A stretch of 64,000 bases of DNA from Methanobacteriota archaeon (GTDB taxonomy: Archaea > Thermoplasmatota > Poseidoniia > Poseidoniales > Thalassarchaeaceae). A program made the position numbers and the translations under genes. Within the stretch, counting starts at the first letter, position 1. Each line of letters opens with the position of its first letter. The notes under the pieces are model-generated. The model worked only from the letters and a program-made list of their open reading frames with translations, searched no databases and had not been told where the DNA came from. Where the stretch lies: NCBI GenBank assembly GCA_004195615.1, contig PSPW01000001.1, positions 765-64,764 of the forward strand, given 5' to 3'. This document shows, one piece after another, positions 2,807 to 24,699 of this stretch.

Positions 2807-3567
2807 GCGTTTCTCCTCCCGATGGTGATGTGGAGCCTCTCTCGAACCTGGTCGTTGATCTTGGCGCGGCCAAGTACCTCAAGGGCGTTGAAGGTGGCCT
2901 TCGCGAAGTTGATTGTAGAACGAGTCTGCCCCGATGAGCGTGACCACACGTCTGCCACTCCCGCGAGTGTCAGAACCCTTCTTCCGTAATCGCCAATGAC
3001 CAGCCCCTTGCCTGATGGGGCTGGGAGTAGGGTCACCCTGGTGGATCCTGAGCGCCCTGTTGCCTTGAATGGGATGCTGTTTCCGGGACCCTCGGCGGAT
3101 TCCCAAGAGCCGTTGCCTCTGTACACTGGTATCAGGTTGAGTTTTGCCTGTGAAATTGCCTTCTGGATGGTGCTGGCCACCTCCTTGCCCTTGCAGATTG
3201 ATAGCCCGACGTATCCATCGCCGTTTCCTACTGCGCATAGTACGTTGAACCTCACACGTCGGCCCGAGTCGGTCATCCTCTGAATCATGTTGACACTAAG
3301 GACGTCGTCGTCCATCTCAGGGAGTAAGGCGTCGACTATCTCGACCTCTCTGATTGGGTATCCTGTTAAGAGGGCCTGCTCGTAGGTCAGTATCTCGCCG
3401 TTCATGACCATACGCCCCAGTCTAGTCCTAGGAGTCCAGTTCCTCAGAGCAGTTAGAGGGTCGGGGCCACGGCGCCTCGGAGCGTCTTCGTCCACTGGTA
3501 CTAGGGCCATTGCGAGGCCAGGGGCTATTTGCGTGACTTTCTCTTCTACATTAGGCTCCTCGGTCAT
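2803..3567 (-). CDS. rps5: 30S ribosomal protein uS5
   Basis: Internal ATG at 3567 of the 380-aa track ORF. It overlaps the uL18 stop by 1 nt, and the upstream part of the long ORF overlaps uL18 out of frame. Motifs: RVRFNVLCAVGNGDGYVGLSICKGKEV. Confidence 0.93.
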   Translation of the reverse strand: MTEEPNVEEKVTQIAPGLAMALVPVDEDAPRRRGPDPLTALRNWTPRTRLGRMVMNGEILTYEQALLTGYPIREVEIVDALLPEMDDDVLSVNMIQRMTDSGRRVRFNVLCAVGNGDGYVGLSICKGKEVASTIQKAISQAKLNLIPVYRGNGSWESAEGPGNSIPFKATGRSGSTRVTLLPAPSGKGLVIGDYGRRVLTLAGVADVWSRSSGQTRSTINFAKATFNALEVLGRAKINDQVRERLHITIGRRNA

Positions 3568-4082
3568 CACTTGCCACCTCCTATCGACTTCTTTGTTGCA
3601 GTCACTGCCTTGGAAATGCTCTCTCCGATGTGCTCTCCGTTGATTCTGTCGTCGGAGGGCAGTACATCTTCTGAATGTGGGATTTTCAATCCTGCTTCGA
3701 TCATTCCCCTCAGAGCCGCATAAGTTCTGTTGCCTGATGAGGATGCTGCCAGTCCGATGTCCAGGATGGCCTCTGAGTGCCCATTGGAGAGAGCTGACTT
3801 CGCCATTGCGTATCCTGCTAGGTAGCAGGCCGGCACTGACTTCCTTGATGCGTCGGTAGGCCACTTGTGTGAGTCCACCAGGGACTTTCCTGTGACTGAC
3901 TCGAGAACCCTGTCGCCATCTAGCTCGTAGGCCACTAGCTGGCAAGTCACTTGCGTGTTTGAGACTCTAACGACTGCTCTTGGAGACCCACCGCGAAGCA
4001 TCCGTGATCTGCGATGGTAGTCAGTCTCAGCGTTTCTCCGTCTCTTGAATCTAAGTCTTTGGTTTCTTCCCTTTGCCATCAC
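3567..4082 (-). CDS. rpl18: 50S ribosomal protein uL18
   Basis: ORF track, MAKGRNQRLRFKRRRNAETDYHRRSRML..AVVRVSNTQVTCQLV. Confidence 0.93.
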   Translation of the reverse strand: MMAKGRNQRLRFKRRRNAETDYHRRSRMLRGGSPRAVVRVSNTQVTCQLVAYELDGDRVLESVTGKSLVDSHKWPTDASRKSVPACYLAGYAMAKSALSNGHSEAILDIGLAASSSGNRTYAALRGMIEAGLKIPHSEDVLPSDDRINGEHIGESISKAVTATKKSIGGGK

Positions 4083-4555
4083 TCATCACCTCCTAGCGAT
4101 ATCCCATCCAGTTCGATGTTGCTCCTGAGGTGGGAAATGGAACGATAAGAGCCGCCCTTCGCCTTGCGGTAGAAGTACCGGTATTGTGAAGGTGTGATCG
4201 CTCCCCTCTCCCTGAGCTCCTTTAGCGTCCTTCTCTGGGACCTAATCTTAGACATCCACCTCTGCTTTCGAGGGGTTCGTGAATTCGCGCTACCGCTGCG
4301 GGAGCCATGCCCTTTTCTCCTTCCCTTGGACTTCTGGAATGCAGATTTTCGGGCTCTTGACCGGCTTGTCCCCTTGATTGGTTTGGCCTTGATTATTCCG
4401 TCCTCTATGAGGTTCCTGACGTCGTCCCTCTGGACTGCATCAGCGACTTCGCTCAAGTAGTCTGGATTGACCCAGATTCTGTGGATCCCCACTGGCTTTC
4501 CCTCCTTTCTGGAGATGATCTCAGATGCCATCCTCTTCTGATTTGAGATAAACAT
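4079..4555 (-). CDS. rpl19e: 50S ribosomal protein eL19
   Basis: ORF track, RIWVNPDYLSEVADAVQRDDVRNLIEDGIIKAKP plus a basic tail. Confidence 0.93.
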   Translation of the reverse strand: MFISNQKRMASEIISRKEGKPVGIHRIWVNPDYLSEVADAVQRDDVRNLIEDGIIKAKPIKGTSRSRARKSAFQKSKGRRKGHGSRSGSANSRTPRKQRWMSKIRSQRRTLKELRERGAITPSQYRYFYRKAKGGSYRSISHLRSNIELDGISLGGDE

Positions 4556-5256
4556 CAGAGATCACCTCTCTTGTCTATCTGGCGTCGGTTTAGGACCCTC
4601 AGCCCCAACTCGTCAGCCCTGTTGTGGATTCGTGATCTCTTCCTGTTGCCAACGCTGGATCCGATTCTTACTGCCTGTCTCTCCGGGTCGAGGCCATCTA
4701 GGTGGTCTGACTTGTGAACGAGGACTTCCTCGAATCCAGACGGGTGAAGTCCCCTAGCGGCTGCGACCTTGCCATATCCGACGCGAGCCATTGGTGAGCG
4801 ATACTTCCTATTCTTCCGCATGCTCGAGTCATCTCCCTTTGGCTTCCTGTAACCGGTCTTGGATAGTCGCCCGTACCTGAACCACTCTTGCCTGCGGAAT
4901 TTGGGTTGCTTCTTGCTCTGCTCCGAACGCATCTTGAGTGCTGACTTCGTGGATTCGTCCAGGACTGGCTTCTGCCTTGCCGTGTGAATTTCATCCCACT
5001 CTTCGAAGTCACCCTCCTCTTCGAAGTCACCCTCCTCTTCGTAATCTTCTTCATCATCTGGAGAATCATCTGCTGGGCTTACCTGCTCCACTTGTGGCTC
5101 CTCTTGGACCGTCTCCTCGGGAGGTTCCTCTGGGACCTCTTCGCCCTCACTGAGTCTTGCGATTAGATCTGCCTTCTTTCCAGAGACAGGGAGACCTCTC
5201 TCCCTGAGTAGTTCCTTCAACTCATTCACTGTCAGATTTTCGTATGCCATTCTCAT
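4555..5256 (-). CDS. rpl32e: 50S ribosomal protein eL32 with N-terminal SAP-like motif and acidic linker
   Basis: The C-terminal 130 aa carry the eL32 core (KFRRQEWFRYGRLSKTGYRKPKGDDSSMR..HPSGFEEVLVH). The N-terminus LTVNELKELLRERGLPVSGKKADLIARL looks like a SAP motif. Confidence 0.9.
   Translation of the reverse strand: MRMAYENLTVNELKELLRERGLPVSGKKADLIARLSEGEEVPEEPPEETVQEEPQVEQVSPADDSPDDEEDYEEEGDFEEEGDFEEWDEIHTARQKPVLDESTKSALKMRSEQSKKQPKFRRQEWFRYGRLSKTGYRKPKGDDSSMRKNRKYRSPMARVGYGKVAAARGLHPSGFEEVLVHKSDHLDGLDPERQAVRIGSSVGNRKRSRIHNRADELGLRVLNRRQIDKRGDL
5001..5041. repeat. Tandem 18-nt repeat (cttcgaagtcaccctcct x2 plus a partial copy) inside rpl32e
   Basis: Read directly from the DNA. It encodes the EEEGDFEEEGDFEE acidic repeat. 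Confidence 0.9.
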
Positions 5257-9330: not shown

Positions 9331-9530
9331 TCCTCCTTTTCCTGACTTGTCTTCGTGAGGAGTCTTGCAATGCTCCTTCGAGTCTGCTTGTAGGCTCCTG
9401 CATTGGACGTAGAGCCACCTAGTGCCTGCTGAGCCCTTAGTTGGAGCATCTCGTCTCTGAGTTCTCCCAGAGTGATCTCGCGCTGCTCCTGGTTCATCTC
9501 ATCGATTTCCTTAGAGCTGACGTGTGACAT
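9327..9530 (-). CDS. rpl29: 50S ribosomal protein uL29
   Basis: 67 aa, LGELRDEMLQLRAQQALGG...RRSIARLLT. Confidence 0.88.
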   Translation of the reverse strand: MSHVSSKEIDEMNQEQREITLGELRDEMLQLRAQQALGGSTSNAGAYKQTRRSIARLLTKTSQEKEE

Positions 9531-9531
9531 T

Positions 9532-10230
9532 TCACTCCTCCTCCTTTTTTGCTGCCCTCGCTAGGGCTTCCTCTAGATCTAGGGGTACGAATCCAGGTGC
9601 CTCCACTAGTTCGGGTAGTCCGGACTCGCTTCTTTCCTGGATTGTTATCTCATGTGGGAGCTTGGATCCTGGCCTCATTATTCTCACAGTGCAGCCTACT
9701 GTCCCGAGCTTCTTCACGGCCGTTGAGAATCCGACATCCATCAACTGTAAAGCAGTCTCGCCGCAGTACTTGATATGCCCCTTCTGGAACTTCTCGACTC
9801 GGTGCCTAGCACCGGTAATCTTGCCACTGAGTGTGACGATGCAACCCCTGGCACCGGCATCCATTATGTTCTGCACGGTGCTGTGGCCGGCTCTTCGGAA
9901 GAACCATCCCCTCTCGAGAGAGCTTGCGAGTCTGCTGGCCATAACCTGGGCATTGATTCGGGATTCCCCGATCTCCTCCACTTCTAGCTGTGGGTTGGTG
10001 AGGTTGAAGTCTTCCTGTAGTCGGCGTTGAAGTTCGTGGATGACCTTGCCCCTTCTTCCTATGACTCGTCCTACTTGCTCAGCTATCAGGGTGACCTTTG
10101 TCCCCTCTGGAGTCCTAGTGAAGGTTAGCCCGCCGAAGCCTGCCCTCTCGGTCTCCTTGAGCAGGTACTCTCGGACGAGTTGCCTCTCGACATTGCGGTT
10201 AATCATCTTCTGAATTGTGTTCTCCTTCAT
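9532..10230 (-). CDS. rps3: 30S ribosomal protein uS3
   Basis: KH-domain motif VGRVIGRRGKVIHELQ, plus operon position. Confidence 0.95.
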   Translation of the reverse strand: MKENTIQKMINRNVERQLVREYLLKETERAGFGGLTFTRTPEGTKVTLIAEQVGRVIGRRGKVIHELQRRLQEDFNLTNPQLEVEEIGESRINAQVMASRLASSLERGWFFRRAGHSTVQNIMDAGARGCIVTLSGKITGARHRVEKFQKGHIKYCGETALQLMDVGFSTAVKKLGTVGCTVRIMRPGSKLPHEITIQERSESGLPELVEAPGFVPLDLEEALARAAKKEEE

Positions 10231-12038: not shown

Positions 12039-12332
12039 CTAGAACGCTCCGAGTTTGAGCGCTGCCTCCTCTGCATCGTATCCATCGGCGAGACGGATGC
12101 TGGCATGCTTGCCAGTTCTGTTGATTCTAACGTTGACCTTTGAGACCTTGACCTCGAGAAGAGTCTCTATTGCCGCCTTGATGTCTTTCTTTGTCGCCTC
12201 TCTTCGGACGATGAATTCAATCCTGTTGTTGTTCTCCGTGTGGCCGCCCGCTGGATCTGCAATCCTCCTTGCTTCGAGGGTCTTCTCTGTAATCCAAGGC
12301 ATGATTATCACGTCATATGGGTCCATCATCAA
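12039..12332 (-). CDS. rpl23: 50S ribosomal protein uL23
   Basis: ORF track and operon position. Confidence 0.9.
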   Translation of the reverse strand: MMMDPYDVIIMPWITEKTLEARRIADPAGGHTENNNRIEFIVRREATKKDIKAAIETLLEVKVSKVNVRINRTGKHASIRLADGYDAEEAALKLGAF

Positions 12333-13223
12333 TCACTCCAGAGCCCCTATTGCGGACTTCGTCCATACTGTGAGTCGTCCCATGTCTCCACCGGGTGCGA
12401 TGTCTTCGGCGCACAGGTCCTTGGCAGCGACTACATCCACGCCTGGGATGTTTCGAGCTGCCTTTTCTAGGCCATCTTTCTGAGCTACGACCAGTAGGAC
12501 GCTCTTTGGCGTCCTGTACTTACGTCCCCTCATTGTGCCCTTGCCGGCCCTGATTGACCTGCCGCTCTTGGAGCGGATCAAGTCTGCGGAGACGCCTAGG
12601 CCCTCCATCATGGCTACGAACTTGCGAGTAGAGTTCTGAGTAGGTATTGACTCGATGTCGTACTTCTCGTCCGAACCGTCCCTCGACTCGATGTAATCAT
12701 CGATGATGATCGGGAATCTGAGACCCTCCTCAAACCTGTGGCCTCGCGAAGAAACTGTGCTTGGGTCGCAGGACGCAGCGATGGCAGAGTCGCGAGCTAT
12801 CTTCCTCTCGCGAGAGTTCATCTTCTGTGACCACTCCTTGTCCACCTTTGGTCCATGGGCCCTTCTCCCGCCTCTGGTATGTGGGTTCTGAGCACCGGTT
12901 CTCTGACCTGCCTTCCTCATGATTCTGGAAACTCCACGACCCTTGCCCCACCATTCAACGGAGTGCTTCATACCTGGTTGTGGAGCACGCTTTCCGTCGT
13001 GTTCCCTGTGACCATAGGATTGCCTCCGGTTGGCCCTAGAAGCATGGACGGCAGCACGGACCAGGTCCTCTCTAATCTGTGAAGTGAATGGCGATGGTAG
13101 TTCGACAGCCTTGCCGTCCTTGGCCTCCACAGCGTATGTTTCTGCCAGAAGACCTGCATCCATCTCCTCTTGGGCGACCAAGTTGATCAGATTGTATGCC
13201 TTTGTCTTCATATTATCACACAC
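12333..13223 (-). CDS. rpl4: 50S ribosomal protein uL4
   Basis: ORF track and operon position. WGKGRGVSRIMRKAG. Confidence 0.92.
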   Translation of the reverse strand: MCDNMKTKAYNLINLVAQEEMDAGLLAETYAVEAKDGKAVELPSPFTSQIREDLVRAAVHASRANRRQSYGHREHDGKRAPQPGMKHSVEWWGKGRGVSRIMRKAGQRTGAQNPHTRGGRRAHGPKVDKEWSQKMNSRERKIARDSAIAASCDPSTVSSRGHRFEEGLRFPIIIDDYIESRDGSDEKYDIESIPTQNSTRKFVAMMEGLGVSADLIRSKSGRSIRAGKGTMRGRKYRTPKSVLLVVAQKDGLEKAARNIPGVDVVAAKDLCAEDIAPGGDMGRLTVWTKSAIGALE

Positions 13224-14578: not shown

Positions 14579-16324
14579 GTGTTCCCATATGTTGACCATC
14601 CAGGATTGGTTTCGGAAATGGTACAGGCCAGGGCATACCAACTCCAGGCCATAGACGATGCGATGGCTGGTTCGATGCTTCTAATCCTACCTACTGCTGC
14701 TGGAAAGACTGCAGTGGCATGGATGTCCATAGTAGAGAGATTGGAGAGAACCGGGGGTTGGGCATTGGTTATCGCCCCTACCGTTGCCCTTTCGAATCAA
14801 CATCTGGAAAATGCCCTGCCAGTCCTTTCCAATGCTTCTGAATTAAGTCCAATTGTGCTGAGTGGACAGCAAACTGCCTCTAAGAGGCCTGAACTCTGGA
14901 GTGGTTCACGATTGGTTTTTGCAACGCCACAGGTGGTGAGAAACGATGTGAGAAAAGGAGTTCTTTCATTGGAGGATTGTAGCCTACTTGTTGTCGACGA
15001 GGCTCATCACTGCACCGGAGAGCACGCAATGGCTGAGGTAGCTGAGATGTACATTTCTCAATCTGAGAATCCACTGATACTGGCCACTACGGCAAGCCCT
15101 GGTTCGAGGAGGGAACAAGTTCAGGAGATTTGCAGGAGGCTGGGGATTCAGAAGATTCATCTTCGTACCAGAGATGATCCGATGGTGGCAGAGTTCCTAT
15201 CGGAGCTAGATGTTGAGGAAGTGGGAGTTGAGGTTCCGAGTGAAATCCGGGACCTCGCAGAGCCATTCAGGATTTGGCAAGAGGGGATTGTAGACAGGGA
15301 GCGAAGGAGTGGCAGGTACGTGATGCCAGGGGCGGTGAATCAAGCGGGTCTATCGAATGCGATGGAAAGGGCTCAGGAGGCCATTAAGAGAGAAGATGTA
15401 AGCGGTTACAGGTCATCCTCTCAGATTGCCACGGCCATGAGGCTGCATCATCTGATTAACCACCTTCTCTGTCAGGGAATAGCAGCATCGAGGCATTTTC
15501 TATCAAGGATGGAGGATGAGGGAGGGAAGAGCAAATCTGCGAAGGACTTTCTCAGGGATCGGAGAGTCAGGAGGCTGACAGCCAGTCTAGAGGCCATGAA
15601 TGAGGTGCACTCCAAAGTTGGGGCAGTCAGAAGGCTAGTTCGTGAGAGGATTAGAAGAGATTCGGAATCTAGGGTAATTGTTTTCGCCAACTATCGAGAT
15701 ACAGTTGAAGCCCTCGAAGGCGCACTTTCAGAGCTCGAAGGGGTGAGGGCGCTCCAGTTCATCGGACAATCGAGTCGCTCTGGTTCTGGAGGGCTCACAG
15801 CAAAGCAGCAGATAGGTAGACTTTCCGAGTTCAGAGCAGGGTCAGCGAACGTTCTGATTGCCACATCAGTAGGGGAAGAAGGTCTAGACATCCCAAGCGC
15901 AGACCTTGTCATATTCTATGAGCCCGTCTCAAGCGAAATCAGGACCATTCAGAGGAGAGGCAGAACTGGAAGAAGGAGACAAGGAGAAGTGGTCGTCCTT
16001 GTTGCCGAGGGAACAAGGGACGAAAGAGCCAAGGATTCGGCAAAGAGGAAGGAAGAGTACATGCACAAGGCTGCGAGGAGAGTCTCGAGAGGACTTCCAG
16101 GGAGTCCTCACAAAGATTTGTCAAACTTGGCGAGGTTCTCGGTATCCTCAGAAAGCGGTATCTGCTCGGCTGCTGAATTCGTAACTGATGCCAGAGAACG
16201 CCATAGGCGCGATCTTGCAGGAACAGATACTACTCCGGCCAAGAGTGCTAAGGAAACTCACAGGGAAGACCTTTCTCCGAGTAATTTCAGACCCAGTGGG
16301 CAGACTGGCCTTGACCAGTTCTAG
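14579..16324 (+). CDS. Hef/FANCM-family SF2 helicase (helicase part only)
   Basis: GTG start with GGAGGT upstream. Motifs: LPTAAGKT, VVDEAHH, VLIATSVGEEGLDIPSADLVIFYEP, QRRGRTGR. I could not recognise an ERCC4 nuclease or HhH segment in the C-terminus. Confidence 0.8.
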   Translation: MFPYVDHPGLVSEMVQARAYQLQAIDDAMAGSMLLILPTAAGKTAVAWMSIVERLERTGGWALVIAPTVALSNQHLENALPVLSNASELSPIVLSGQQTASKRPELWSGSRLVFATPQVVRNDVRKGVLSLEDCSLLVVDEAHHCTGEHAMAEVAEMYISQSENPLILATTASPGSRREQVQEICRRLGIQKIHLRTRDDPMVAEFLSELDVEEVGVEVPSEIRDLAEPFRIWQEGIVDRERRSGRYVMPGAVNQAGLSNAMERAQEAIKREDVSGYRSSSQIATAMRLHHLINHLLCQGIAASRHFLSRMEDEGGKSKSAKDFLRDRRVRRLTASLEAMNEVHSKVGAVRRLVRERIRRDSESRVIVFANYRDTVEALEGALSELEGVRALQFIGQSSRSGSGGLTAKQQIGRLSEFRAGSANVLIATSVGEEGLDIPSADLVIFYEPVSSEIRTIQRRGRTGRRRQGEVVVLVAEGTRDERAKDSAKRKEEYMHKAARRVSRGLPGSPHKDLSNLARFSVSSESGICSAAEFVTDARERHRRDLAGTDTTPAKSAKETHREDLSPSNFRPSGQTGLDQF

Positions 16325-17181
16325 TCGCCGATTACAGCTATCCTTGTCCTGAGTTGGGCTAGTCGGTTGTTGTAGTGTCCAAATGCGAATGCGAGCATCT
16401 CTGTTAGATGGATTACCGGGATATTGGTGGATAGCCCGGTCGTCCTGCTAGCCTTGCCCTGATAGATATCGAGTGCGGTGTGGGAAAGGGTGCATGCGCT
16501 AACTATCATAGCCGCACCTTCCGACTTTGCGTCATTGATGGTTGAGGCGATTTGTCGGAGAACTGTTGCCTCCTCCGAGAATAAACCTGGGACTCCCACG
16601 CTTTGAGTTCTACTTTCCCACATTACAGGCTCGCCCCCTAAGGCTTTGATCAGGAGCTCCAGGTACTGTGGGTCGAAAACATCGTCTTCTCCACAAGCGC
16701 CCTCCTGCTGCATGTTGGGACCGTAGAATCCGGCAATTGGGAAGTCTATTGGGTTGCGGACCTTCTCGCTGACTTTGTCCAAGCCGATCTCGTCGACAAT
16801 TACGTGGAGGAGGTGATGTATGCTTAACTTGCCCGACATGGTGAGACCTGAAGTGCGCTGGAGAACTTCGTTAGTTTTGGCTAGTAATAGAGGGTCATCA
16901 TTCAGTCTGGCGAGGTCTTCGTTAAGATTTCCAGCCGTGGCGGCGCATGGAGTGATTATGTCCATGCCCATCGATTCTGCGATTGCGAAGTTTCGTGCGT
17001 TCAGAGTTACTTGCAGCAAGTCGTTGGCCTGTCTGATTATTCCCGCACCACAACTTGTTGCCCCGTTCATGGGTAAGAGTTCGATTCCCAGGGAACGAGC
17101 AGTGGGCTCCATAGTCTGGGAAACTTCAGTAGCACTGCTGTGAGCGATGTTGCCAGGGTGGTAAGCGTACTTCATGGCCAT
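16321..17181 (-). CDS. HdrB/SdhE-like double CCG-domain protein with most motif cysteines replaced
   Basis: Two CCG-like halves: YHPGN..SCGAG..TPCAATAGNL and FYGPN..SVGVPG..SACTLSHTAL. Only 4 Cys in total. The start overlaps the upstream stop (ATGA). Confidence 0.7.
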   Translation of the reverse strand: MAMKYAYHPGNIAHSSATEVSQTMEPTARSLGIELLPMNGATSCGAGIIRQANDLLQVTLNARNFAIAESMGMDIITPCAATAGNLNEDLARLNDDPLLLAKTNEVLQRTSGLTMSGKLSIHHLLHVIVDEIGLDKVSEKVRNPIDFPIAGFYGPNMQQEGACGEDDVFDPQYLELLIKALGGEPVMWESRTQSVGVPGLFSEEATVLRQIASTINDAKSEGAAMIVSACTLSHTALDIYQGKASRTTGLSTNIPVIHLTEMLAFAFGHYNNRLAQLRTRIAVIGD

Positions 17182-19361
17182 CAGAATCTACCATCCATCT
17201 CGTTGAAAATTGCCACGACCTCGTGGTGATTGTCCACCGATGAGTTGAACTGCTTGGGCATCTTTCCTATTCCTGCTGGTGGAGCCACCATCCCCAGCAT
17301 TCCGTTGAACACATTTCCACCTGTCCTGGTGAATCCAAAGACCATCCGTGCAGTTACTCCTGAGAAGAGGTTTCCAAGAAGTGCGAATGGACCCAGTGCC
17401 TGGCGATAGATCACTGTGTCGTTGACCATTCCGCTGCTCTTCACCGTCCAAGTGTACCACCACACGTGCTTGCCGTGTTTTCCGTTGAAGCCGTCTCCCG
17501 TTAGTACCGAGTTCTTTACCTCCAAAAGGGCCTCGGAGACAGCGCTTGGTACTGAGGATTGGCGCTTAATCGGAGCTAGGTCGGTTTCAGCCTTAATTCC
17601 ATTAGGAGAGGATAGTAATCTGTCTATTTCCTCTCCCTTCGAGGGAGAGGTCCGAGGATCGTTTCTCCTAGACCAAGATGATGCGATGACGGCTGGTCCT
17701 AGGTATCCGTTTGCGTGAGGGACGGCATCTGAGCTGGAATGGAGGATGTTCTGGCTACCGAAGTCTCTCATCGAGTGTATTCTCGCAGCTACTGCTGGAT
17801 CCATTGTCCCCATTGTCCCCTGTGGGGTATGTGCCCCTTCCCTTGTGGCGGCGACCATCCATGGATCGCTGGATTCCCTCTTCCTTTCTAGAGACCATGG
17901 GTCTATGGCTAAATCTCTGATTACTTCGAATCCGGGAAGGGGTTCGATTCTCAGAGAGATTGCCCCCTCTCTCATTGGTGCGACGGAATCTATCCGGGAC
18001 AGACCCGGTAATATCAGCCGGCCATTCACCGAAATGGCGGTGTTTGAATCATCTGCTGAGCCGTCACGGAATGTTAGAGACCCATCTTGAGATGACTTGA
18101 GTGTTCTCAGAACTTCAAGGACCGACATGTGCCCATGCAGTGAGCATATCCACGTGTCCGTGCCGGTGCTGGAAGTCTCTGGGTCGTACCTGAAGACAGT
18201 AACCCCGACCTGCACTGGTTCGGATCTAATCTTGGGTAGCGAAAACCCATCATCTCCCTCTGCTCCAGCTGAAGAGCCACTCACGTACATCTTGATCGAA
18301 TCCACCATTTCCTCGTGGAATTGCCCAGTGCTATCCACAGCAGCGAGAGCCGGGAGTGCTTCCAAGGTCCACTCCGCTGCGGGTGCATCGTAGTCAACGT
18401 CACAGTCCAGGCGAACTATGATGCGGGTCGCTCCGAGTCCCTCGAAACGGCCGTCCCAGTCCTTCCCGGACTGGCAGAAGAACTCGTAGCTCGTGTCGCC
18501 TAGTGCGCATATTGCGAAGTGGGTCCCTTCGAGCCGGGATGCTGAGTCGGAGATTGCGAATTGCCACAGATCCTCTGCGTTGTCGGGCATCTCGCCCTCC
18601 CCCCAAGTGGAGCAGATGATCATCACACGCTTCTTCCCCGATAGGGAGTTGAAGTCGAATCCATCCATATCGTGGACCTCCCCTACTAGGCCGTAGGACT
18701 TTGCATCCTTCGATATCTTCGCAGCGAGTTCCTCGGAGTTGCCAGATTGAGATCCGAATAGTATCACTAGTGATCGGTCTCCCGAGGAAATTAGCCCTTC
18801 CAAGTCACCGCTTGCCGTTTCATCCTGAGCTTTCTCTGATCCTGTTTCCTCCGAGGACTCCTCGGATTCTACAGATGTCTCTGCTGGCGAGAGAGCTTTC
18901 CCTCCGGCTCCTGCAGAGGCGATGAGTGTCAGAGCATTGGTGGTGAATTCTGCAGCTGGATCATCGTATTCAACATCGCAGTCGACTCGTTCGAGAAGTC
19001 TGGTTGCTCCCTGCTTCTCGAACCATCCGTCCCAGTCCTTCCCGGACTGGCAGAAGAACTCGTAGCTGGTATCGCCCAGTGCGCATACTGCAAAGTTGCA
19101 GCCAGACAAAGAAGGAGGAGAGTCCCCGTTTGCTGCTTCCCAGAGATCAACGGCGTTGTCGGGCATCTCGCCCTCCCCCCATGTGCTACAAAAAATCAGG
19201 ACGTTTTTAGCTCCGTCTAGATCTCCAATTTCCATTTCTTCCATCCCCTTTACCGAAGGTGACAGACCTAGAGATTTCGCCTGTTTCTCGGCTATGCTTG
19301 CTAGGTCTTCTGAGTTACCTGACTCGGAACCGAAGAGTATCAACAGAGTGGGGGCGGACAA
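17181..19361 (-). CDS. Fusion protein: two flavodoxin-like domains, a cysteine-free SdhB/FrdB-like domain and a 105-aa hydrophobic tail
   Basis: TTG start with AGGTGAT upstream. Flavodoxin motifs occur twice (ILFGS(E/Q)SGNSE, CSTWGEGEMPDNA, CALGDTSYEFFCQSGKDWDG). The SdhB-like part has VFRYDPE, IEPLPGFEVIRDLAIDPW and YLGPAVIASSWSRRNDPR. Confidence 0.75.
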   Translation of the reverse strand: MSAPTLLILFGSESGNSEDLASIAEKQAKSLGLSPSVKGMEEMEIGDLDGAKNVLIFCSTWGEGEMPDNAVDLWEAANGDSPPSLSGCNFAVCALGDTSYEFFCQSGKDWDGWFEKQGATRLLERVDCDVEYDDPAAEFTTNALTLIASAGAGGKALSPAETSVESEESSEETGSEKAQDETASGDLEGLISSGDRSLVILFGSQSGNSEELAAKISKDAKSYGLVGEVHDMDGFDFNSLSGKKRVMIICSTWGEGEMPDNAEDLWQFAISDSASRLEGTHFAICALGDTSYEFFCQSGKDWDGRFEGLGATRIIVRLDCDVDYDAPAAEWTLEALPALAAVDSTGQFHEEMVDSIKMYVSGSSAGAEGDDGFSLPKIRSEPVQVGVTVFRYDPETSSTGTDTWICSLHGHMSVLEVLRTLKSSQDGSLTFRDGSADDSNTAISVNGRLILPGLSRIDSVAPMREGAISLRIEPLPGFEVIRDLAIDPWSLERKRESSDPWMVAATREGAHTPQGTMGTMDPAVAARIHSMRDFGSQNILHSSSDAVPHANGYLGPAVIASSWSRRNDPRTSPSKGEEIDRLLSSPNGIKAETDLAPIKRQSSVPSAVSEALLEVKNSVLTGDGFNGKHGKHVWWYTWTVKSSGMVNDTVIYRQALGPFALLGNLFSGVTARMVFGFTRTGGNVFNGMLGMVAPPAGIGKMPKQFNSSVDNHHEVVAIFNEMDGRF
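18453..18520. repeat. Near-identical 68-nt DNA segment shared by the two flavodoxin domains (copy B)
   Basis: gtcccagtccttcccggactggcagaagaactcgtagct... matches 19029-19096 with only a few mismatches. Confidence 0.85.
19029..19096. repeat. Near-identical 68-nt DNA segment shared by the two flavodoxin domains (copy A)
   Basis: See 18453-18520. A second shared block gttgtcgggcatctcgccctcccccca occurs near 18575 and 19155. Confidence 0.85.
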
Positions 19362-19464
19362 GACATCACCTACCCAGTCTTGGCTGGGTATTCACCTCGA
19401 CCATAATCAGATTATTGAATATGCGCATCGGTCAAGGTGTTGACAGTGCCGAAAACTGGTCCGG

Positions 19465-21156: not shown

Positions 21157-24100
21157 CTACTCTTCCTTCTGAGATTCAAGCCACTGCTTTCCGTAGTACT
21201 GCCACTGCTCCATGGTCCACCCCTCTGGGAGTCCGCCTTCTGGAACGGGTGGCTCGGCTGATTCTTGTACAGCTTCAGATGGTTGTTCCATGGAGTTCGA
21301 TGGAGGTGGTGGCTGTTGAAAAAGCTCCTTCGAGCCCCCATACATTGAGTTGGCGATGTCGTCTGCCGATGGGAGTTGGCTGGTATCCTTCTTTTCCCCG
21401 CTCCATCCTTCGACAGTCATGCTGTAATCTCCCAATGATGAGTATTCTTCCAGAGGGGCGCGCGCGCTTCTCAGGACCCTGAAAGAGGAGAATAGGACCA
21501 CACCCATAATCGCCATACCAATTGCGACCAGGACAAAGTTGGCAGCGAGCCAGCCGACTTCCTTAACGTCCGTCCCTTCCGGAATGGGATCAGGCTTGTA
21601 GAGTGTGATCTGGGCCGTCTTTTTTGTCGTGTCCAAATCGCTGATTACGACTAGTGAGACATTGAAGTTGACGATGTTGGCTTCAAGGTTCTCCAGATTC
21701 TCGTCCCTGACATCAATATGGATGGTGACGTTCCTACTCTCCCCGGCAGACAGAATGAAGTTTCGGTCATCTTCGTCTACTCTTGCATCGTAGACTGTCC
21801 AGAGGTTGTCCAACTCGACATCTGCTCGTATCTGCTGTTCCAATTCTGGATGGGCGCTACGAATGGTGAAAACTAGAATGTAGTCGTCGCCTGATTCAGA
21901 TATTTCTGCCGCATTTGACTGTGAAGAGGGGGGGAGCACCAGGAGGAAACCGACCGTTCCCACCTCGAATCTTGCTTCGCCCTCTGCGGAGTTTCCTGAT
22001 TCGATGCTAGTGGCCCTAAGTTTGATTATCCGAGGACCCTCCACCCCGGCAGCGAAAGAGTAGCTCACGCTGAGGTTGTAATCCTCCCCGGGGGCTATGT
22101 ATGGCGTCCGCCCATCGGATAGGCCGGCTACGAAGGCAGTTACGTCTGATGGGAAATCTAGCTCTATTTCGAAGGCATCGTCCTCGTTTCCTGTATTGGA
22201 AATCTTCCACTTGAGGGTTCGTGGGTCGGTACCTGCAGCGAAGACCTCCTGAGAAAGGTCCCTGTCTTCGACTTCTACCAGGTATGTCTTTGGAACCGTG
22301 AGGTAGAAATTGGAGACAGACTGGTAACTAGGATTCGATTGACTGGTACCGATAATGGAAACCCTGTAAGTTCCGTTTTCTACCCCTTCAGGCATGGGTA
22401 AAATCAGTGAAAGAGTGATCTGTCCACCATTGGCCTCCAGAGTAACTTCTTCGGAACTGATATCAGCTTCTAGCTTCCAGTTATCAGTATCCACTCTGAT
22501 GTCGAAGGTATCCTCTGTGTTTCCGTAATTGAACAGGAAGACCTGAACTACCTGTAACTGGCCGTCAGCGGGAGCTAGCAACGCATTCTTCACTGGTGCG
22601 ATTGCTAAGTCATAGTACACCGGCACCTCGATATAAATTTTCGATTCGGCTTGGAATGTATTTGGTAGGCTAGGGTTTGCTCGAAGGTTCAACTCATATG
22701 TTCCCGGCTCCATCCCCTCTGGGATGGTAACTTCCACATTCAAAGACGCCTCTTCGACTGGAAGCATGTTGATGGTTGAGACCTCGCCTCCCCCGACCTC
22801 GTACCACTTTACATTGTCAGTGGAAAGTTTTCCTTCTAGCAAAGGATTAGGGAAGATTCCCCCGAGGCTCCACGAGGAGTACTGGTTTCCTGTATTCTTC
22901 AAGTCCATCGTTATGTTTGCTTTGCCTCCAGGCAATATTATTGCCGCTGGGTTTGCTAGTGTCTCTTGTTTCAGAGTCATCCTATATGTCGATTCGACGC
23001 TAACGGGAAGCTCGACGAAGTACTTCGTATCTTGGAAACCGAGGATTCCATCATTGATCCAAGTGTACCAGAACAGATCCTGAACCGGAGCTCCGTCAGG
23101 GATTGTCAGGTTGAACCATGCATTGGTGTATGTCCTGGCCTTGATTGTGTTTGTCTTAACCTCGTTATCGTGGTCATTGAAGTTGTTTGAGTCGATTCTG
23201 AGGGGGAATTGAGACATCCAAGAACTGTTTGAAACCTCGGTGAAGAATCTGAGAGTGGTGTCGATGTAACCCTTGTTGAAGATACGGCAGTGCAAAGACG
23301 GAGAGTTGGGGTCCGCCGCTTCGACGAGGATGGTATTGCCGCCCTCGGACTCGGGGTCGTAGACTGTCGAACCACCGAAATTGTCGGGGAAGTTGCACTG
23401 GGCGTCCAGGGTGTACTCCTCTCCGCGTTCTATAGCGAAAATGATGAATGAATCGATGTTGATTCCCTCATCGGAATAGGAGGAATTTGAACGGAAAAGG
23501 AAGGATACCGTGAAGCCTTCATTCTGGTGCATCCCGGTAGCATTCCAGACTAGCCTATTCCAGTTCCCCTCGGATGTGGATAGATTGCGTGAAGAGTAAT
23601 TCAGATACTCCACCCCCCCACCTGCTCCAGAGTCTGTCTCGAGCATGATGGTGTCGCCAGCACCCATTTGCCCCCAAGCGTCAGTTGCAATCTGTATCGA
23701 ATAGAGCAGTGGGCTATTCACCTTCACTAAGCAGAGATTTGCCCCGTGGATTGAGGACACAATGGGGTCGTGCTCCCCATAACCAAGACCATGACTATCA
23801 TCGTAGACCTGATCGGAGCATCCGTCGTTCGAGTTGTATCGTTGCCATGCCCACTTGAGTCTGTCGTATCGGTTCGAGGCATAGTTGTCGTTCTCGCCTG
23901 AGATCTTCCAATGCCAATCCCCTGTAGCACTGGATTGGTTGTCCATCCTCCATGTTCCAGTTGGGAAATTGTTTGTGTCAGGCTGGTAGCCGTCAGTGTA
24001 TCCGGCGGCGAACCACGTTGGTTCTCCGAAAGGCACTGCGTTATTCGTGCAGTACTTGCCCTCATTGGCCTCATCATTACAGAAACCATTCTCCATAGGG

Positions 24101-24699
24101 TCATACCAGAAGGCTATGGGTACATCCCGATCTAGAATGTCATTTGAGTCGTCGCCATCGATTCCAATTCCTGCATCAACAATCCCCCTGAATGTCACGC
24201 CACCGGTTAGCCACCCATCATCGCTGAGTGTGCTATGAGCAATCGAAGGAGTCCAGACGAAAGGCATTCTAATCGACTGCCCGGCGGCCAGAGTAATGTT
24301 GAATGTCCACTCTTGGATTATTGTTCCAATGGGATGCCAAATCTCTAGTTTGGCGTCTGCGGTTACTGGTGAAGGGTCGACACCTACTTGACGGAATGTG
24401 ACATTTACCTGAATTGACTCTCCCTTAGTCATGTACTCGAGTGTGCTAGAGTCAGGCTGGTCCCATACTCTTGGAGAATAGCTTGAGTTTCCAATCTCGA
24501 TCCCTGTAACTTCAAAATCGACGGGATTGTTCTTGGGGCCTACTTCTGATTGCTTTGAAGGGGCATCAGGAGCCTGAATTATGACATTAGAAAGACTCAC
24601 CGCAATAAGCAGCGAGGAAAGAAGGAGTGCGCGAATCGAACTCATTGACACCAAATTGGGGAAATAAACTGTGTAAGAAGGTTGGGGAGTGTGGTTCAT
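21157..24699 (-). CDS. Giant C-terminally anchored surface (S-layer/adhesin-like) protein
   Basis: 1180 aa. Signal peptide MSSIRALLLSSLLIAVSL (probable start 24645). Repeated CARDB/NEW3-like motifs (FNYGNTEDTFDIRVD, SNTGNEDDAFEIELD, KNTGNQYSSW). Many N-x-S/T sequons. One C-terminal TM (LAANFVLVAIGMAIMGVVLF) followed by a Pro/acidic tail. Confidence 0.7.
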   Translation of the reverse strand: MNHTPQPSYTVYFPNLVSMSSIRALLLSSLLIAVSLSNVIIQAPDAPSKQSEVGPKNNPVDFEVTGIEIGNSSYSPRVWDQPDSSTLEYMTKGESIQVNVTFRQVGVDPSPVTADAKLEIWHPIGTIIQEWTFNITLAAGQSIRMPFVWTPSIAHSTLSDDGWLTGGVTFRGIVDAGIGIDGDDSNDILDRDVPIAFWYDPMENGFCNDEANEGKYCTNNAVPFGEPTWFAAGYTDGYQPDTNNFPTGTWRMDNQSSATGDWHWKISGENDNYASNRYDRLKWAWQRYNSNDGCSDQVYDDSHGLGYGEHDPIVSSIHGANLCLVKVNSPLLYSIQIATDAWGQMGAGDTIMLETDSGAGGGVEYLNYSSRNLSTSEGNWNRLVWNATGMHQNEGFTVSFLFRSNSSYSDEGINIDSFIIFAIERGEEYTLDAQCNFPDNFGGSTVYDPESEGGNTILVEAADPNSPSLHCRIFNKGYIDTTLRFFTEVSNSSWMSQFPLRIDSNNFNDHDNEVKTNTIKARTYTNAWFNLTIPDGAPVQDLFWYTWINDGILGFQDTKYFVELPVSVESTYRMTLKQETLANPAAIILPGGKANITMDLKNTGNQYSSWSLGGIFPNPLLEGKLSTDNVKWYEVGGGEVSTINMLPVEEASLNVEVTIPEGMEPGTYELNLRANPSLPNTFQAESKIYIEVPVYYDLAIAPVKNALLAPADGQLQVVQVFLFNYGNTEDTFDIRVDTDNWKLEADISSEEVTLEANGGQITLSLILPMPEGVENGTYRVSIIGTSQSNPSYQSVSNFYLTVPKTYLVEVEDRDLSQEVFAAGTDPRTLKWKISNTGNEDDAFEIELDFPSDVTAFVAGLSDGRTPYIAPGEDYNLSVSYSFAAGVEGPRIIKLRATSIESGNSAEGEARFEVGTVGFLLVLPPSSQSNAAEISESGDDYILVFTIRSAHPELEQQIRADVELDNLWTVYDARVDEDDRNFILSAGESRNVTIHIDVRDENLENLEANIVNFNVSLVVISDLDTTKKTAQITLYKPDPIPEGTDVKEVGWLAANFVLVAIGMAIMGVVLFSSFRVLRSARAPLEEYSSLGDYSMTVEGWSGEKKDTSQLPSADDIANSMYGGSKELFQQPPPPSNSMEQPSEAVQESAEPPVPEGGLPEGWTMEQWQYYGKQWLESQKEE

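What the first reader, a model, noticed from the sequence alone, without database searches (positions are those of the whole stretch)
16321..19361. SdhB/SdhE (TfrB-like) module stripped of Fe-S cysteine ligands and fused to two flavodoxin domains
The 726-aa protein starts with two flavodoxin-like domains (aa 5-144 and 197-336). Next comes a region (aa ~385-620) that aligns by eye along the whole length of the succinate dehydrogenase/fumarate reductase iron-sulfur subunit. Examples: VFRYDPE against IYRYNPD, LTFRDGSADDSNTAISVNG against LSFRRSCREGVCGSDGLNMNG, IEPLPGFEVIRDLAIDPW against IRPLPGLPVIRDLVVDM, SQNILHSSSDAVP against ECILCACCSTSCP, and YLGPAVIASSWSRRNDPR against FIGPAGLLAAYRFLIDSRD. This region contains a single Cys, and none sits at a cluster-ligand position, whereas canonical SdhB has 11 ligand Cys for 3 clusters. 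A 105-aa hydrophobic tail of unknown nature follows. The next gene overlaps it by ATGA, so the two are translationally coupled. It is a double CCG-domain HdrB/SdhE-like protein in which most CCG-motif cysteines are also gone: PGC becomes PGN, CCG becomes SCG or SVG, and CxxC becomes CAAT or CTLS. SdhB plus a CCG protein is the pairing seen in type-E succinate dehydrogenases and in TfrB. No flavoprotein (SdhA/TfrA) gene lies nearby. Hypothesis: this is either an iron-sparing electron-transfer module in which FMN domains replace Fe-S clusters, which would be attractive for an Fe-limited marine organism, or a redox-dead scaffold with a new function. I do not know of a described family with this architecture.
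Basis: partly seen in the sequence, partly recalled or inferred. Interest (0 to 1): 0.8.

Follow-up and report, generated by a model that had tools for sequence, protein, structure and literature searches.

The report
Iron-sulfur-free SdhB/SdhE pair with flavodoxins
Marine Group II archaea carry a conserved two-gene remnant of a succinate dehydrogenase whose iron-sulfur-binding cysteines are gone and whose first protein is fused to swappable ferredoxin or flavodoxin domains (two flavodoxins here); this looks like stepwise removal of iron from an electron-transfer module, but its actual function is untested.

Summary
The 726-aa protein (17181..19361, minus strand) has two CysJ-type flavodoxin domains, then a full-length homolog of the long-form SdhB of type-E-like succinate dehydrogenases. 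All 12 cluster-ligand columns are substituted. The 'tail of unknown nature' is that subclass's own C-terminal extension plus an MGII-specific insert. The coupled 286-aa gene is an HdrB/SdhE-like CCG protein with 3 of 10 ligand cysteines left.

It is not an artefact. The exact pair recurs in independent assemblies, over 1000 homologs exist, and synteny (thermosome > fusion > CCG < Hef > ribosomal operon) holds across Poseidoniia. The nearest canonical relatives sit in sdhA-sdhB-CCG operons, so this is a detached sdhB-sdhE remnant.

New findings: the N-terminal carrier varies (Fd-Fld, Fld-Fld, Fld, Fd-Fd, Fd); flavodoxin replaced ferredoxin several times independently; and the partner's first CCG motif is intact in basal clades but decayed at least twice in parallel.

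Best reading (confidence about 0.45): a still redox-active module in which tethered carriers replaced the fixed Fe-S wire, and this window holds its most iron-free form. The substrate and partner are unknown, and a separate canonical sdhB probably exists in MGII. No prior description was found; databases label the pair 'cysJ' and 'sdhC'. I rate it a new variant of a known kind, interest 0.65.

The parts
19366..19370 (-). Shine-Dalgarno-like GGTGA, 5 nt upstream of the TTG start codon (19359..19361) of the fusion gene
   Evidence: Read directly from the sequence. The first in-frame start after an upstream TGA is this TTG, and the N-terminus matches homologs P0001 and P0241.
18930..19349 (-). 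Flavodoxin domain 1 (aa 5-144), CysJ/MioC-like FMN domain. It occupies the position where most relatives carry a Fer4_13/Fer4_15 ferredoxin domain.
   Evidence: Pfam Flavodoxin_1 with 2 stretches, E 1.2e-62. NCBIfam flavodoxin/MioC models match aa 6-135. It is 62% identical to domain 2. Relatives carry PF13370/PF13459 at this position.
18774..18929 (-). Acidic Ser/Glu/Ala-rich linker (aa 145-196) between the two flavodoxin domains
   Evidence: Sequence composition. The region is variable and gappy in the family alignments.
18342..18773 (-). Flavodoxin domain 2 (aa 197-340), the resident FMN domain shared by most of the family
   Evidence: PDB 1ykg_A (E. coli CysJ FMN domain) E 1.5e-30, with LGDTSYEFFCQSGKD identical. 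TIGR01931 cysJ matches only profile positions 59-206 of 597, so there is no FAD/NADPH part.
18228..18341 (-). Linker (aa 341-378) with the conserved DGF..P motif, preceding the SdhB-like core
   Evidence: Conservation profile. The model shows a helix at fragment residues 5-15 with low pLDDT afterwards.
17892..18227 (-). SdhB-like N-terminal domain (aa 379-490): Fer2_3 fold without [2Fe-2S] ligands (S435, deletion, T441, G453)
   Evidence: Pfam Fer2_3 E 4e-9. PDB 1nek_B alignment. Ligand-column table. pLDDT 72-90 and SdhB fold hits.
17502..17891 (-). SdhB-like C-terminal domain (aa 491-620): the former two-cluster ferredoxin-like domain, with ligand columns now F534, Q537, L540, S544 and E592, L595, I598, S602
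   Evidence: Profile A4 against PDB FrdB 1kf6_B, E 1.5e-18. Collinear alignment with canonical long-form SdhB. S544 and E592 invariant in 199/199.
17184..17501 (-). C-terminal extension (aa 621-726): homolog of the long-form SdhB extension, plus an MGII-specific insert (GFTRTGG...PPAGIG). It is the most conserved part of the protein.
   Evidence: MAFFT alignment. hhalign of tail-only against canonical-extension-only profiles: probability 84.9%, E 6.4e-6, 68 columns. Many invariant columns. No Pfam or PDB match. Predicted helical with pLDDT 36-67.
16321..17181 (-). CCG-protein gene (286 aa): HdrB/SdhE-like, with both CCG motifs degenerate (N11, S43, C44, C79, T82 / P155, S194, V195, C230, S233) and an extra conserved C163. 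Its start codon shares one base with the fusion gene's stop codon.
   Evidence: TIGR03288 E 1.4e-37 and NF042965 (MFR SdhE) E 5.9e-34. PDB HdrB E 1e-30 with residue-by-residue alignment. Cys conservation. Ligand-column comparison. Junction sequence.

Best explanation
The two genes encode a heterodimeric remnant of the SdhB-SdhE (iron-sulfur subunit plus CCG subunit) half of a type-E-like succinate dehydrogenase.

Shown:
- In the ancestor of the Poseidoniia (Marine Group II and relatives), this half was separated from sdhA.
- The SdhB part lost all three cluster sites. The cavity positions are now filled by hydrophobic or polar side chains, plus an invariant Ser and an invariant Glu.
- One or two small electron-carrier domains were fused to the SdhB N-terminus through flexible linkers.
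- The CCG subunit lost its second cluster motif at the origin of the family, and its first motif later, in several lineages independently.

Inferred:
- The SdhB-like body and its conserved C-terminal extension now serve as a rigid adaptor that holds the CCG subunit.
- The tethered carriers (ferredoxin and/or flavodoxin; two FMN domains in this window) do the electron transfer that the fixed Fe-S wire used to do. They would swing between an external redox partner and an acceptor site on or near the CCG subunit.
- This window's version needs no iron by any recognisable motif. A canonical SdhB+SdhE pair needs about 17-18 Fe (counted from the established cluster content of these families).

Most likely partner (weakest step): the SdhA/SdhB succinate dehydrogenase core encoded elsewhere in MGII genomes, for which this CCG protein is the only 'SdhC/E'-type subunit that annotation pipelines detect. 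An independent ferredoxin/flavodoxin-dependent reductase is almost as likely.
For: Homology and ligand loss.

The tail is the long-form SdhB extension.

The nearest canonical relatives are long-form SdhB (PRK12577/PRK12576/MFR SdhB). They lie in sdhA-sdhB-CCG operons: 39 of 80 loci, and also the two closest outgroups, L096 and L097. Their CCG genes are Cys-rich (median 10 Cys) and sit immediately downstream, in L050 with the same 1-nt overlap.

The pair is a core, vertically inherited unit: more than 1000 homologs and identical synteny in all clades examined.

The carriers look functional. FMN motifs are intact, with about 50% identity to the E. coli CysJ FMN domain. The ferredoxin domains of relatives keep CxxCxxC...CP. 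The carrier module varies (Fd-Fld 129, Fld-Fld 43, Fld 26, Fd-Fd 1, and an Fd-only form) on a constant core. Flavodoxin replaced ferredoxin by at least 3-5 independent duplications, as expected for interchangeable working carriers.

The module was redox-active at its origin and eroded stepwise. Basal clades keep a complete first CCG motif (5 Cys), while the SdhB part is already Cys-free. The first motif then decayed in different ways: N-S-C-C-T, N-S-D-C-S and D-C-C-S-C.

Purifying selection is strong: the C-terminal 381 aa are 65-88% identical across MGII, and the tail has dozens of invariant residues.

Link to complex II: IMG names the CCG protein with the K00241 'sdhC' title. Tully 2019 (PMC6336850, suppl. 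file 12) lists a single sdhC gene cluster, no sdhD, a single separate sdhB cluster and a core 'cysJ'.
Against: - No experiment exists, and the electron donor, acceptor and substrate are all unknown.
- The pair is never next to sdhA/sdhB in Poseidoniia. It sits between housekeeping genes.
- In derived clades the CCG subunit keeps only 2-4 scattered conserved Cys, and only C230 is conserved in all clades, so no acceptor site can be named.
- I could not retrieve an MGII canonical sdhAB locus to see whether it has its own anchor.
- The tail-CCG contact and the mobility of the carriers are inferred. No complex model could be made, and the tail is modelled with low confidence.
- Membrane association is unsupported.
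Confidence: 0.45

Rival explanations
1. Independent ferredoxin/flavodoxin-dependent reductase. The carrier domains took the place of SdhA as the electron entry point. The complex would take electrons from ferredoxin-reducing enzymes (for example 2-oxoacid:ferredoxin oxidoreductases) or from an FNR-type reductase, and deliver them to a thiol/disulfide, a quinone or another small acceptor at the CCG subunit. It would have no link to succinate oxidation.
For: - The pair forms its own two-gene unit away from any sdhA.
- The carriers are fused at the N-terminus of SdhB, where sdhA lies immediately upstream in canonical operons.
- Basal forms have Fd or Fd-Fd only.
- CCG proteins act on thiols in HdrB and TfrB (established knowledge; weak TfrB model hits).
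- A separate K00240 sdhB cluster exists in MGII pangenomes.
Against: - No candidate substrate.
- The CCG cluster sites that do this chemistry in HdrB are gone in most clades.
- No FNR-like or other partner gene is conserved nearby.
Confidence: 0.25
2. Redox-dead scaffold or pseudoenzyme. The SdhB-like and CCG-like bodies have a structural or regulatory role, and the flavodoxin/ferredoxin domains are vestigial or act as generic soluble carriers that merely happen to be tethered.
For: - All SdhB ligands and most CCG ligands are lost.
- The remaining CCG cysteines are not conserved across clades, except C230.
- The neighbourhood is housekeeping (chaperonin, helicase, ribosomal operon).
Against: - Vestigial carriers would decay or be lost. 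Instead they are kept with intact cofactor motifs and repeatedly rebuilt by duplication.
- Basal clades keep a full CCG cluster motif.
- The sequence conservation is that of a protein under tight functional constraint.
Confidence: 0.17
3. These two proteins are themselves the only SdhB and SdhC/E of MGII complex II, making it a succinate dehydrogenase that works entirely without Fe-S clusters, with SdhA passing electrons straight to the tethered FMN domains.
For: - Ancestry from sdhABE operons.
- MGII reconstructions report complex II from KEGG calls only.
- The CCG protein is what gets called sdhC.
Against: - Tully 2019's pangenome lists an sdhB (K00240) gene cluster in 92%/90% of genomes. 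This is distinct from the four 'cysJ' clusters (100%/99%) that fit the fusion.
- IMG does not give the fusion the K00240 name.
Confidence: 0.08
4. Sequencing, assembly or frameshift artefact, or a decaying pseudogene pair.
For: None found.
Against: - Intact ORFs with conserved length in over 1000 homologs.
- The identical protein occurs on at least 22 contigs from independent assemblies.
- Substitutions at ligand columns are themselves conserved: S544 and E592 in 199/199.
Confidence: 0.01

Closest known systems
Type-E-like succinate dehydrogenase / fumarate reductase with long-form SdhB and a CCG-domain subunit (SdhE/SdhC). Examples: NCBIfam PRK12576/PRK12577, and the Campylobacter MFR SdhB/SdhE models NF042952/NF042965.
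   Same: - The domain order of the SdhB part, including its C-terminal extension.
- A CCG gene immediately downstream, with overlapping or near-overlapping stop and start codons.
- Sequence and fold homology of both proteins.
   Different: - No adjacent sdhA.
- All 11-12 SdhB ligand Cys are replaced, and 7 of 10 CCG ligand Cys are replaced in this window.
- N-terminal carrier domains have been added.
- There is an insert of about 25 aa in the extension.
- Scores lie far below the curated family cut-offs (49.8 vs 344 bits; 117.9 vs 500 bits).
Thiol:fumarate reductase subunit TfrB (NF004898) and heterodisulfide reductase HdrBC
   Same: An SdhB/HdrC-type ferredoxin-like module works with an HdrB-type double-CCG module. 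The CCG protein aligns over its full length with solved HdrB structures (E 1e-30).
   Different: - TfrB is a single fused polypeptide and HdrBC is two, but both are rich in Fe-S clusters, including two noncubane [4Fe-4S] clusters on the CCG domains. Here the ligand sets are gone.
- Matches to the TfrB model are marginal (E 1e-4 and 0.029).
- The tail shows no detectable sequence similarity to HdrC.
FMN (flavodoxin-like) domain of diflavin reductases: CysJ, cytochrome P450 reductase, MioC
   Same: Both flavodoxin domains match it strongly and keep the FMN-binding motifs. As in CysJ and CPR, the domain is tethered by a flexible linker and would act as a mobile shuttle.
   Different: There is no FAD/NADPH (FNR-like) domain. 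The cysJ model is matched only over positions 59-206 of 597. The 'cysJ / sulfite reductase flavoprotein' database label is therefore a domain-level mis-annotation.
Ferredoxin-to-flavodoxin substitution in iron-limited marine microbes (isiB/fldA-type replacement; from general knowledge)
   Same: A [4Fe-4S]-type ferredoxin module and an FMN flavodoxin module alternate at the same functional position. The switch is recurrent among closely related lineages.
   Different: Here the swap happens inside one polypeptide, by duplication of a resident domain. It is not regulated expression of separate genes. No link to iron availability has been measured.

Membership tests
SdhB/FrdB iron-sulfur subunit (TIGR00384, PRK12576/12577) | Two-domain fold: an N-terminal plant-ferredoxin-like domain (Fer2_3) plus a C-terminal bacterial-ferredoxin-like domain | tested here: met
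   Pfam Fer2_3 E 4e-9. Profile against PDB FrdB E 1.5e-18 for the C-terminal domain. The top 32 Foldseek hits are all SdhB/FrdB, aligned over the full target length.
SdhB/FrdB iron-sulfur subunit (TIGR00384, PRK12576/12577) | Eleven or twelve conserved Cys that bind the [2Fe-2S], [4Fe-4S] and [3Fe-4S]/[4Fe-4S] clusters | tested here: not met
   None of the 12 ligand columns holds Cys in the window protein. Across 199 family members, Cys occurs at only one column, in 28 members.
SdhB/FrdB iron-sulfur subunit (TIGR00384, PRK12576/12577) | Score above the curated family cut-off | tested here: not met
   PRK12576 49.8 bits against a cut-off of 344; TIGR00384 44.8 against 88.
SdhB/FrdB iron-sulfur subunit (TIGR00384, PRK12576/12577) | Encoded with, and bound to, an SdhA/FrdA flavoprotein | tested here: not met
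   No FAD_binding_2/Succ_DH_flav_C gene anywhere in the 64-kb window or within 10 kb in eight relatives. Physical binding cannot be tested with these tools.
Long-form (type-E-like) SdhB subclass | C-terminal extension of about 100 aa after the last cluster motif, and a CCG gene immediately downstream | tested here: met
   Extension homology: hhalign probability 84.9%, E 6.4e-6, and collinear alignments. The CCG gene is downstream with a 1-nt overlap. Canonical loci show the same layout.
HdrB / SdhE CCG-domain proteins (PF02754, TIGR03288, NF042965) | Two CCG domains in an HdrB-like fold, matching over the full length | tested here: met
   TIGR03288 aa 4-276, E 1.4e-37. PDB HdrB 8rvv_B aa 4-269, E 1e-30. 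Pfam detects only the first CCG domain (E 2.5e-8).
HdrB / SdhE CCG-domain proteins (PF02754, TIGR03288, NF042965) | Two CX(31-39)CCX(35-36)CXXC motifs, i.e. 10 Cys binding two noncubane [4Fe-4S] clusters | tested here: not met
   Window: N-S-C-C-T and P-S-V-C-S, so 3 of 10 remain. Canonical partners keep 9-10 of 10. Basal Poseidoniia keep motif 1 only.
HdrB / SdhE CCG-domain proteins (PF02754, TIGR03288, NF042965) | Score above the curated equivalog cut-off | tested here: not met
   129.6 bits against 345 (TIGR03288); 117.9 against 500 (NF042965).
Flavodoxin (PF00258) | Flavodoxin fold with an FMN phosphate-binding loop and flavin-contacting loops | tested here: met
   Two domains, E 1.2e-62, above the gathering score. 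The motifs GS(E/Q)SGNSE, STWGEGEMPDNA and LGDTSYEFFCQSGK align with the CysJ FMN domain 1ykg_A. Actual FMN binding was not tested.
CysJ, the assimilatory sulfite reductase flavoprotein (TIGR01931). This is the database/KEGG label for the fusion. | FMN domain plus FAD-binding and NADPH-binding (FNR-like) domains, and pairing with CysI | tested here: not met
   Only profile positions 59-206 of 597 are matched, at 275.8 bits against a cut-off of 668. No FAD_binding_1/NAD_binding_1 hit.
TfrB thiol:fumarate reductase subunit B (NF004898) | A single polypeptide fusing the SdhB-like and HdrB-like parts, with full Cys complements | tested here: not met
   There are two separate genes here. The model E-values are only 1.1e-4 and 0.029, and the ligand cysteines are absent.

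The most novel reading that the evidence does not exclude
Marine Group II archaea, among the most abundant archaea of the surface ocean, run a respiratory-type electron-transfer step (succinate- or ferredoxin-linked reduction of a membrane or thiol acceptor) through an SdhB/SdhE-derived complex. In this complex the entire fixed iron-sulfur wire has been replaced by tethered, swinging carrier domains, and in lineages like this one the complex contains no iron at all. The repeated ferredoxin-to-flavodoxin swaps and the parallel loss of CCG clusters would then record ongoing selection by iron scarcity and/or oxidative stress. This would be the first Fe-S-free descendant of a complex II module, and a natural example of replacing an electron wire with a shuttle.
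Probability: 0.18. Interest if true: 0.9.

Novelty: new variant of a known kind. Interest (0 to 1): 0.65.

Why it matters
SdhB and HdrB/SdhE-type proteins are textbook iron-sulfur proteins, and a conserved core family that has discarded every cluster ligand yet remains under strong selection is unexpected. If it is still redox-active, it shows a fixed Fe-S relay being replaced by tethered mobile carriers. It also gives a clear, lineage-resolved record of iron removal from an enzyme in an organism that lives in iron-poor, oxygen-rich water.

There is also a practical consequence. The pair is annotated as 'cysJ / sulfite reductase flavoprotein', 'succinate dehydrogenase cytochrome b subunit' or 'heterodisulfide reductase iron-sulfur subunit B family'. 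These labels feed into MGII metabolic reconstructions (complex II, sulfite assimilation) and are wrong at the level of cofactors, and probably of function.

Finally, the alternation between Fd and Fld architectures could serve as a metagenomic marker to test against iron and oxygen gradients.

Tried and rejected
1. Tail as an HdrC-like clamp (my own recollection of a GRLNE-type motif in HdrC). A PDB profile search with the tail alone found nothing. The broader profile matched HdrC only over a cluster motif, upstream of the tail. There is no Pfam family for the tail. Rejected as unsupported.

2. First AlphaFold run with a shallow alignment (65-88% identity). Mean pLDDT was 44.5, which is unusable. 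It was redone with divergent clades added. The tail remained low-confidence, so nothing structural is claimed for it.

3. Tail as a transmembrane or amphipathic anchor. Maximum KD19 is 1.36 and helix hydrophobic moments are only 0.2-0.4. Inconclusive, so not claimed.

4. Search for MGII's own canonical SdhB or sdhAB locus. Cluster names of 20 outgroup representatives were bacterial or unnamed. The one genome-collection scan returned Nitrospira and Dehalococcoidia/SAR202 only. Evidence for a separate sdhB therefore rests on Tully 2019's supplementary table.

5. C79 + C230 as a universal redox dithiol replacing the clusters. This is weakened because C79 is Ser in the partner of P0438, so only C230 is universal.

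6. Strict coupling between loss of the Fd domain and loss of CCG motif 1. Not found: Fd-Fld fusions coexist with degenerate partners (L001, L008).

7. A first attempt at the genome scan with 20 canonical sequences failed for lack of a conserved stretch. One literature query was rejected for syntax.

8. L050 ORF 6157-7977 was a spurious overlapping frame in a high-GC genome. It was replaced by a systematic analysis of upstream ORFs.

Full report
**1. What is in the window**

Two minus-strand ORFs occupy 16321..19361. The upstream one is 726 aa at 17181..19361. It starts at a TTG that is preceded by a Shine-Dalgarno-like GGTGA. Its stop codon shares one base with the ATG of the downstream 286-aa ORF (TTC TGA TGG, i.e. 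TGATG).

The pair lies between a thermosome gene upstream on the same strand and a convergent Hef-type helicase gene. Beyond that is the large ribosomal-protein operon. The names given to homologs place the organism in Marine Group II archaea (Thalassarchaeaceae / Poseidoniales).

**2. Check of the observation**

- *Flavodoxin domains.* Pfam finds two Flavodoxin_1 domains (E 1.2e-62) and a Fer2_3 domain at aa 387-487 (E 4e-9). The second flavodoxin domain matches the solved FMN domain of E. coli CysJ at E 1.5e-30, with the flavin-contact motifs intact. The cysJ model is matched only over its FMN part, so there is no FAD/NADPH domain.
- *SdhB-like region.* NCBIfam SdhB models match aa 379-571 (E 3e-13) but far below their curated cut-offs.
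- *Neighbour.* It matches HdrB and the MFR SdhE model over its full length (E 1.4e-37 and 5.9e-34) and solved HdrB structures at E 1e-30. The printed alignment shows PGC>PGN, CC>SC, CxxC>CxxT in the first CCG motif. In the second motif it shows C>P, CC>SV, CxxC>CxxS.
- *Structure.* With a diverse alignment, AlphaFold models the SdhB-like core at pLDDT 72-90. All of the 32 best Foldseek matches in the PDB are SdhB/FrdB chains, aligned over their whole length.
- *Ligand columns.* I aligned 199 family members with ten canonical relatives. Eleven of the twelve ligand columns never contain Cys, and the twelfth contains Cys in 28 members. In the window the columns read S435/deletion/T441/G453, F534/Q537/L540/S544, and E592/L595/I598/S602. 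S544 and E592 are invariant.

**3. Not an artefact; a core family**

- The C-terminal 381 aa have hundreds of homologs at 65-88% identity, and the neighbour has hundreds at 70-99%. A profile of divergent members finds over 1100 more.
- The identical CCG protein lies next to a 726- or 720-aa two-flavodoxin fusion on at least 22 contigs from independent assemblies, including two NCBI MAGs.
- An exhaustive profile search of 1.84 billion representative proteins finds only about ten full-length clusters at 50% identity. There is then a gap, from E 1e-76 to E 1e-18, before ordinary Cys-rich SdhB proteins appear.
- Every clade examined shows the same synteny, including the most divergent ones named Poseidoniia: thermosome > fusion > CCG protein < Hef helicase > ribosomal operon.

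**4. Where it comes from**

The nearest canonical proteins are 'long-form' SdhB of about 310-330 aa. They match PRK12577, PRK12576 and the Campylobacter MFR SdhB model end to end.

The MGII core aligns collinearly with them from the first strand to the C-terminus. A profile-profile comparison restricted to the extension gives 85% probability and E 6e-6 over 68 columns. It also shows an MGII-specific insert (GFTRTGG...PPAGIG). Of the complete canonical outgroups, 39 carry such an extension and 3 do not.

I scanned one genome per species with the canonical long-form alignment. In 39 of the 80 best loci, a 559-aa SdhA (FAD_binding_2 E 3.7e-109 plus Succ_DH_flav_C) lies immediately upstream, and a CCG gene with a median of 10 cysteines lies immediately downstream. 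In L050 the junction has the same one-base overlap as in the window. The two canonical proteins closest to the MGII core also sit in sdhA-sdhB-CCG operons, one of them next to succinyl-CoA synthetase genes.

The MGII pair is therefore the sdhB-sdhE half of a type-E-like succinate dehydrogenase operon. It has been detached from sdhA and remodelled.

**5. What the relatives add**

(a) *The N-terminal module is variable on a constant core.* Among complete members in my sample there are 129 ferredoxin-flavodoxin, 43 flavodoxin-flavodoxin, 26 flavodoxin-only and one ferredoxin-ferredoxin form, plus a ferredoxin-only form. The ferredoxin domains keep CxxCxxC...CP.

(b) *The window's first flavodoxin is a duplicate of the second.* They are 62% identical.
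- On a tree of the core, Fd-Fld and Fld-Fld forms are interleaved. The window's protein is sister to an Fd-Fld protein.
- On a tree of flavodoxin domains, first-position domains fall into at least two separate clades. In two further cases they group with their own second domain: P0442 at 79% and P0423 at 71% to own Fld2, against 65% to any other first-position domain.
- So ferredoxin was replaced by a duplicated flavodoxin at least three to five times. Within the window's larger lineage, the two kinds of N-terminus appear to have been exchanged between close relatives.
- These are neighbour-joining trees on short domains, so the exact number of events is uncertain.

(c) *The CCG partner shows stepwise and parallel decay.*

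| Group | Motif 1 ligand columns | Motif 2 ligand columns |
|---|---|---|
| Canonical partners (L097, L059) | 4-5 of 5 Cys | 5 of 5 Cys |
| Three basal Poseidoniia clades (partners of P0243, P0450, P0254) | C-C-C-C-C | one Cys kept |
| Window's clade | N-S-C-C-T | one Cys kept |
| Second large clade (partners of P0404, P0393) | N-S-D-C-S | one Cys kept |
| Flavodoxin-flavodoxin lineage within the basal group (partner of P0438) | D-C-C-S-C | one Cys kept |

Only C230 is conserved everywhere. The SdhB part is Cys-free in all of these groups. The order of events was therefore: the SdhB wire and the second CCG site were lost first, with carriers already attached. The first CCG site and the ferredoxin were lost later, and more than once.

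**6. Mechanism: what is shown and what is inferred**

*Shown:*
- homology of both proteins to the SdhB and CCG families;
- loss of the ligand cysteines;
- the identity of the tail;
- ancestry from sdhA-sdhB-CCG operons;
- intact cofactor motifs in the carrier domains;
- recurrent carrier swaps;
- strong purifying selection, especially on the tail.

*Inferred:*
- that the two proteins still form a complex through the tail;
- that the carriers, on their long acidic linkers, act as mobile shuttles in place of the lost wire;
- that the module is still redox-active.

The recurrent rebuilding of the carrier position, and the intact CCG motif in basal clades, argue for activity. A dead scaffold would be expected to lose these domains.

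Counting from the established cluster content of these families, a canonical SdhB+SdhE pair holds about 17-18 Fe. A basal Poseidoniia pair holds about 8-12. The window's version holds none by recognisable motifs, or at most one cluster if its four cysteines were to bind one. That possibility cannot be tested here.

*The partner.* IMG gives the CCG protein the K00241 'sdhC' name. Tully et al. 2019 (PMC6336850, supplementary file 12) list sdhA in 98% of genomes, a single sdhB cluster in 92%/90%, a single sdhC cluster in 96%/92%, no sdhD, and 'cysJ' in 100%/99%.

The simplest reading is that the fusion is their cysJ, the CCG protein is their sdhC, and a separate canonical SdhB exists. That leaves the canonical SdhAB without any other recognised anchor, which is why I rank 'acceptor module of complex II' slightly first. 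However, the pair is never near sdhA, so an independent ferredoxin/flavodoxin-dependent reductase is almost as likely. I could not retrieve the MGII sdhAB locus with the tools available.

**7. Literature**

- No paper in the searchable library describes this family. None of the main MGII genomics papers contains the word flavodoxin.
- Pereira et al. 2019 (PMC6741140) noted the pair beside the ribosomal operon by its automatic names only.
- Tully 2019 calls MGII complex II 'canonical' on the basis of KEGG annotation.
- A metatranscriptome study does not mention the pair.
- One paper (PMC10783094) reports that MGII clades alternate between Fe/Mn- and Ni-superoxide dismutases, and links this to oxygen and metal history. 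This is only context for metal-related swaps in the group.

**8. Verdict**

However, 'FMN replaces the clusters' is too simple, and the tail is not new.

This is a new variant of a known kind: a type-E SdhB/SdhE pair that lacks Fe-S ligands and carries fused carrier domains. It is conserved across an abundant marine archaeal lineage, mis-annotated in databases, and of unproven function. Interest 0.65.

Noticed in passing
window 14579..16324 (+): The Hef-type helicase next to the pair is 581 aa and has helicase domains only (DEAD, Helicase_C, RNA_helicase_helical). In relatives, the gene at the same position is 753-886 aa with an ERCC4 nuclease or HHH domains (L001, L006, L008, L011), or is split into helicase + ERCC4 genes (L007). 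The nuclease part therefore seems to be lost or relocated in this lineage and in L004/L005.
   Followed up: partly
P0001 (534 aa homolog, 87% identical): This relative has a single flavodoxin whose N-terminal half resembles the window's first flavodoxin and whose C-terminal half resembles the second. That is what recombination between the two repeats, or an assembly collapse of the repeat, would produce.
   Followed up: no
window 4555..5256 (-) and 2803..3945 (-): Ribosomal protein L32e carries an N-terminal SAP domain (Pfam SAP E 5e-15). The S5 ORF is 380 aa, with about 200 residues ahead of the S5 domains. This could be a real extension or an over-long ORF call from an upstream alternative start.
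   Followed up: no
window 21157..24699 (-): An 1180-aa protein with no Pfam hit in relatives (it is listed with '-'). It has an N-terminal hydrophobic segment, many N-x-S/T sites and a C-terminal transmembrane stretch, so it is probably a large glycosylated surface protein. Its position next to the thermosome gene is conserved across MGII.
   Followed up: no
L012-L048 (Nitrospira loci): In Nitrospira genomes the canonical long-form sdhB stands alone, between an M24 peptidase gene and archease/RtcB genes. There is no adjacent sdhA or CCG gene. So separation of long-form sdhB from its operon partners is not unique to MGII.
   Followed up: partly
window 34736..35677 (+): A 313-aa DAO-family FAD-dependent oxidoreductase is the only other flavoenzyme-like gene found in the window. 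It lies about 15 kb from the pair and there is no evidence of linkage.
   Followed up: no
window 9524..10030, 12055..12483, 17416..18393 and others: There are many long ORFs on the strand opposite to real genes, for example four ORFs of about 100 aa antisense to the fusion gene. These look like the usual shadow ORFs of a moderately GC-rich genome, not genes.
   Followed up: no
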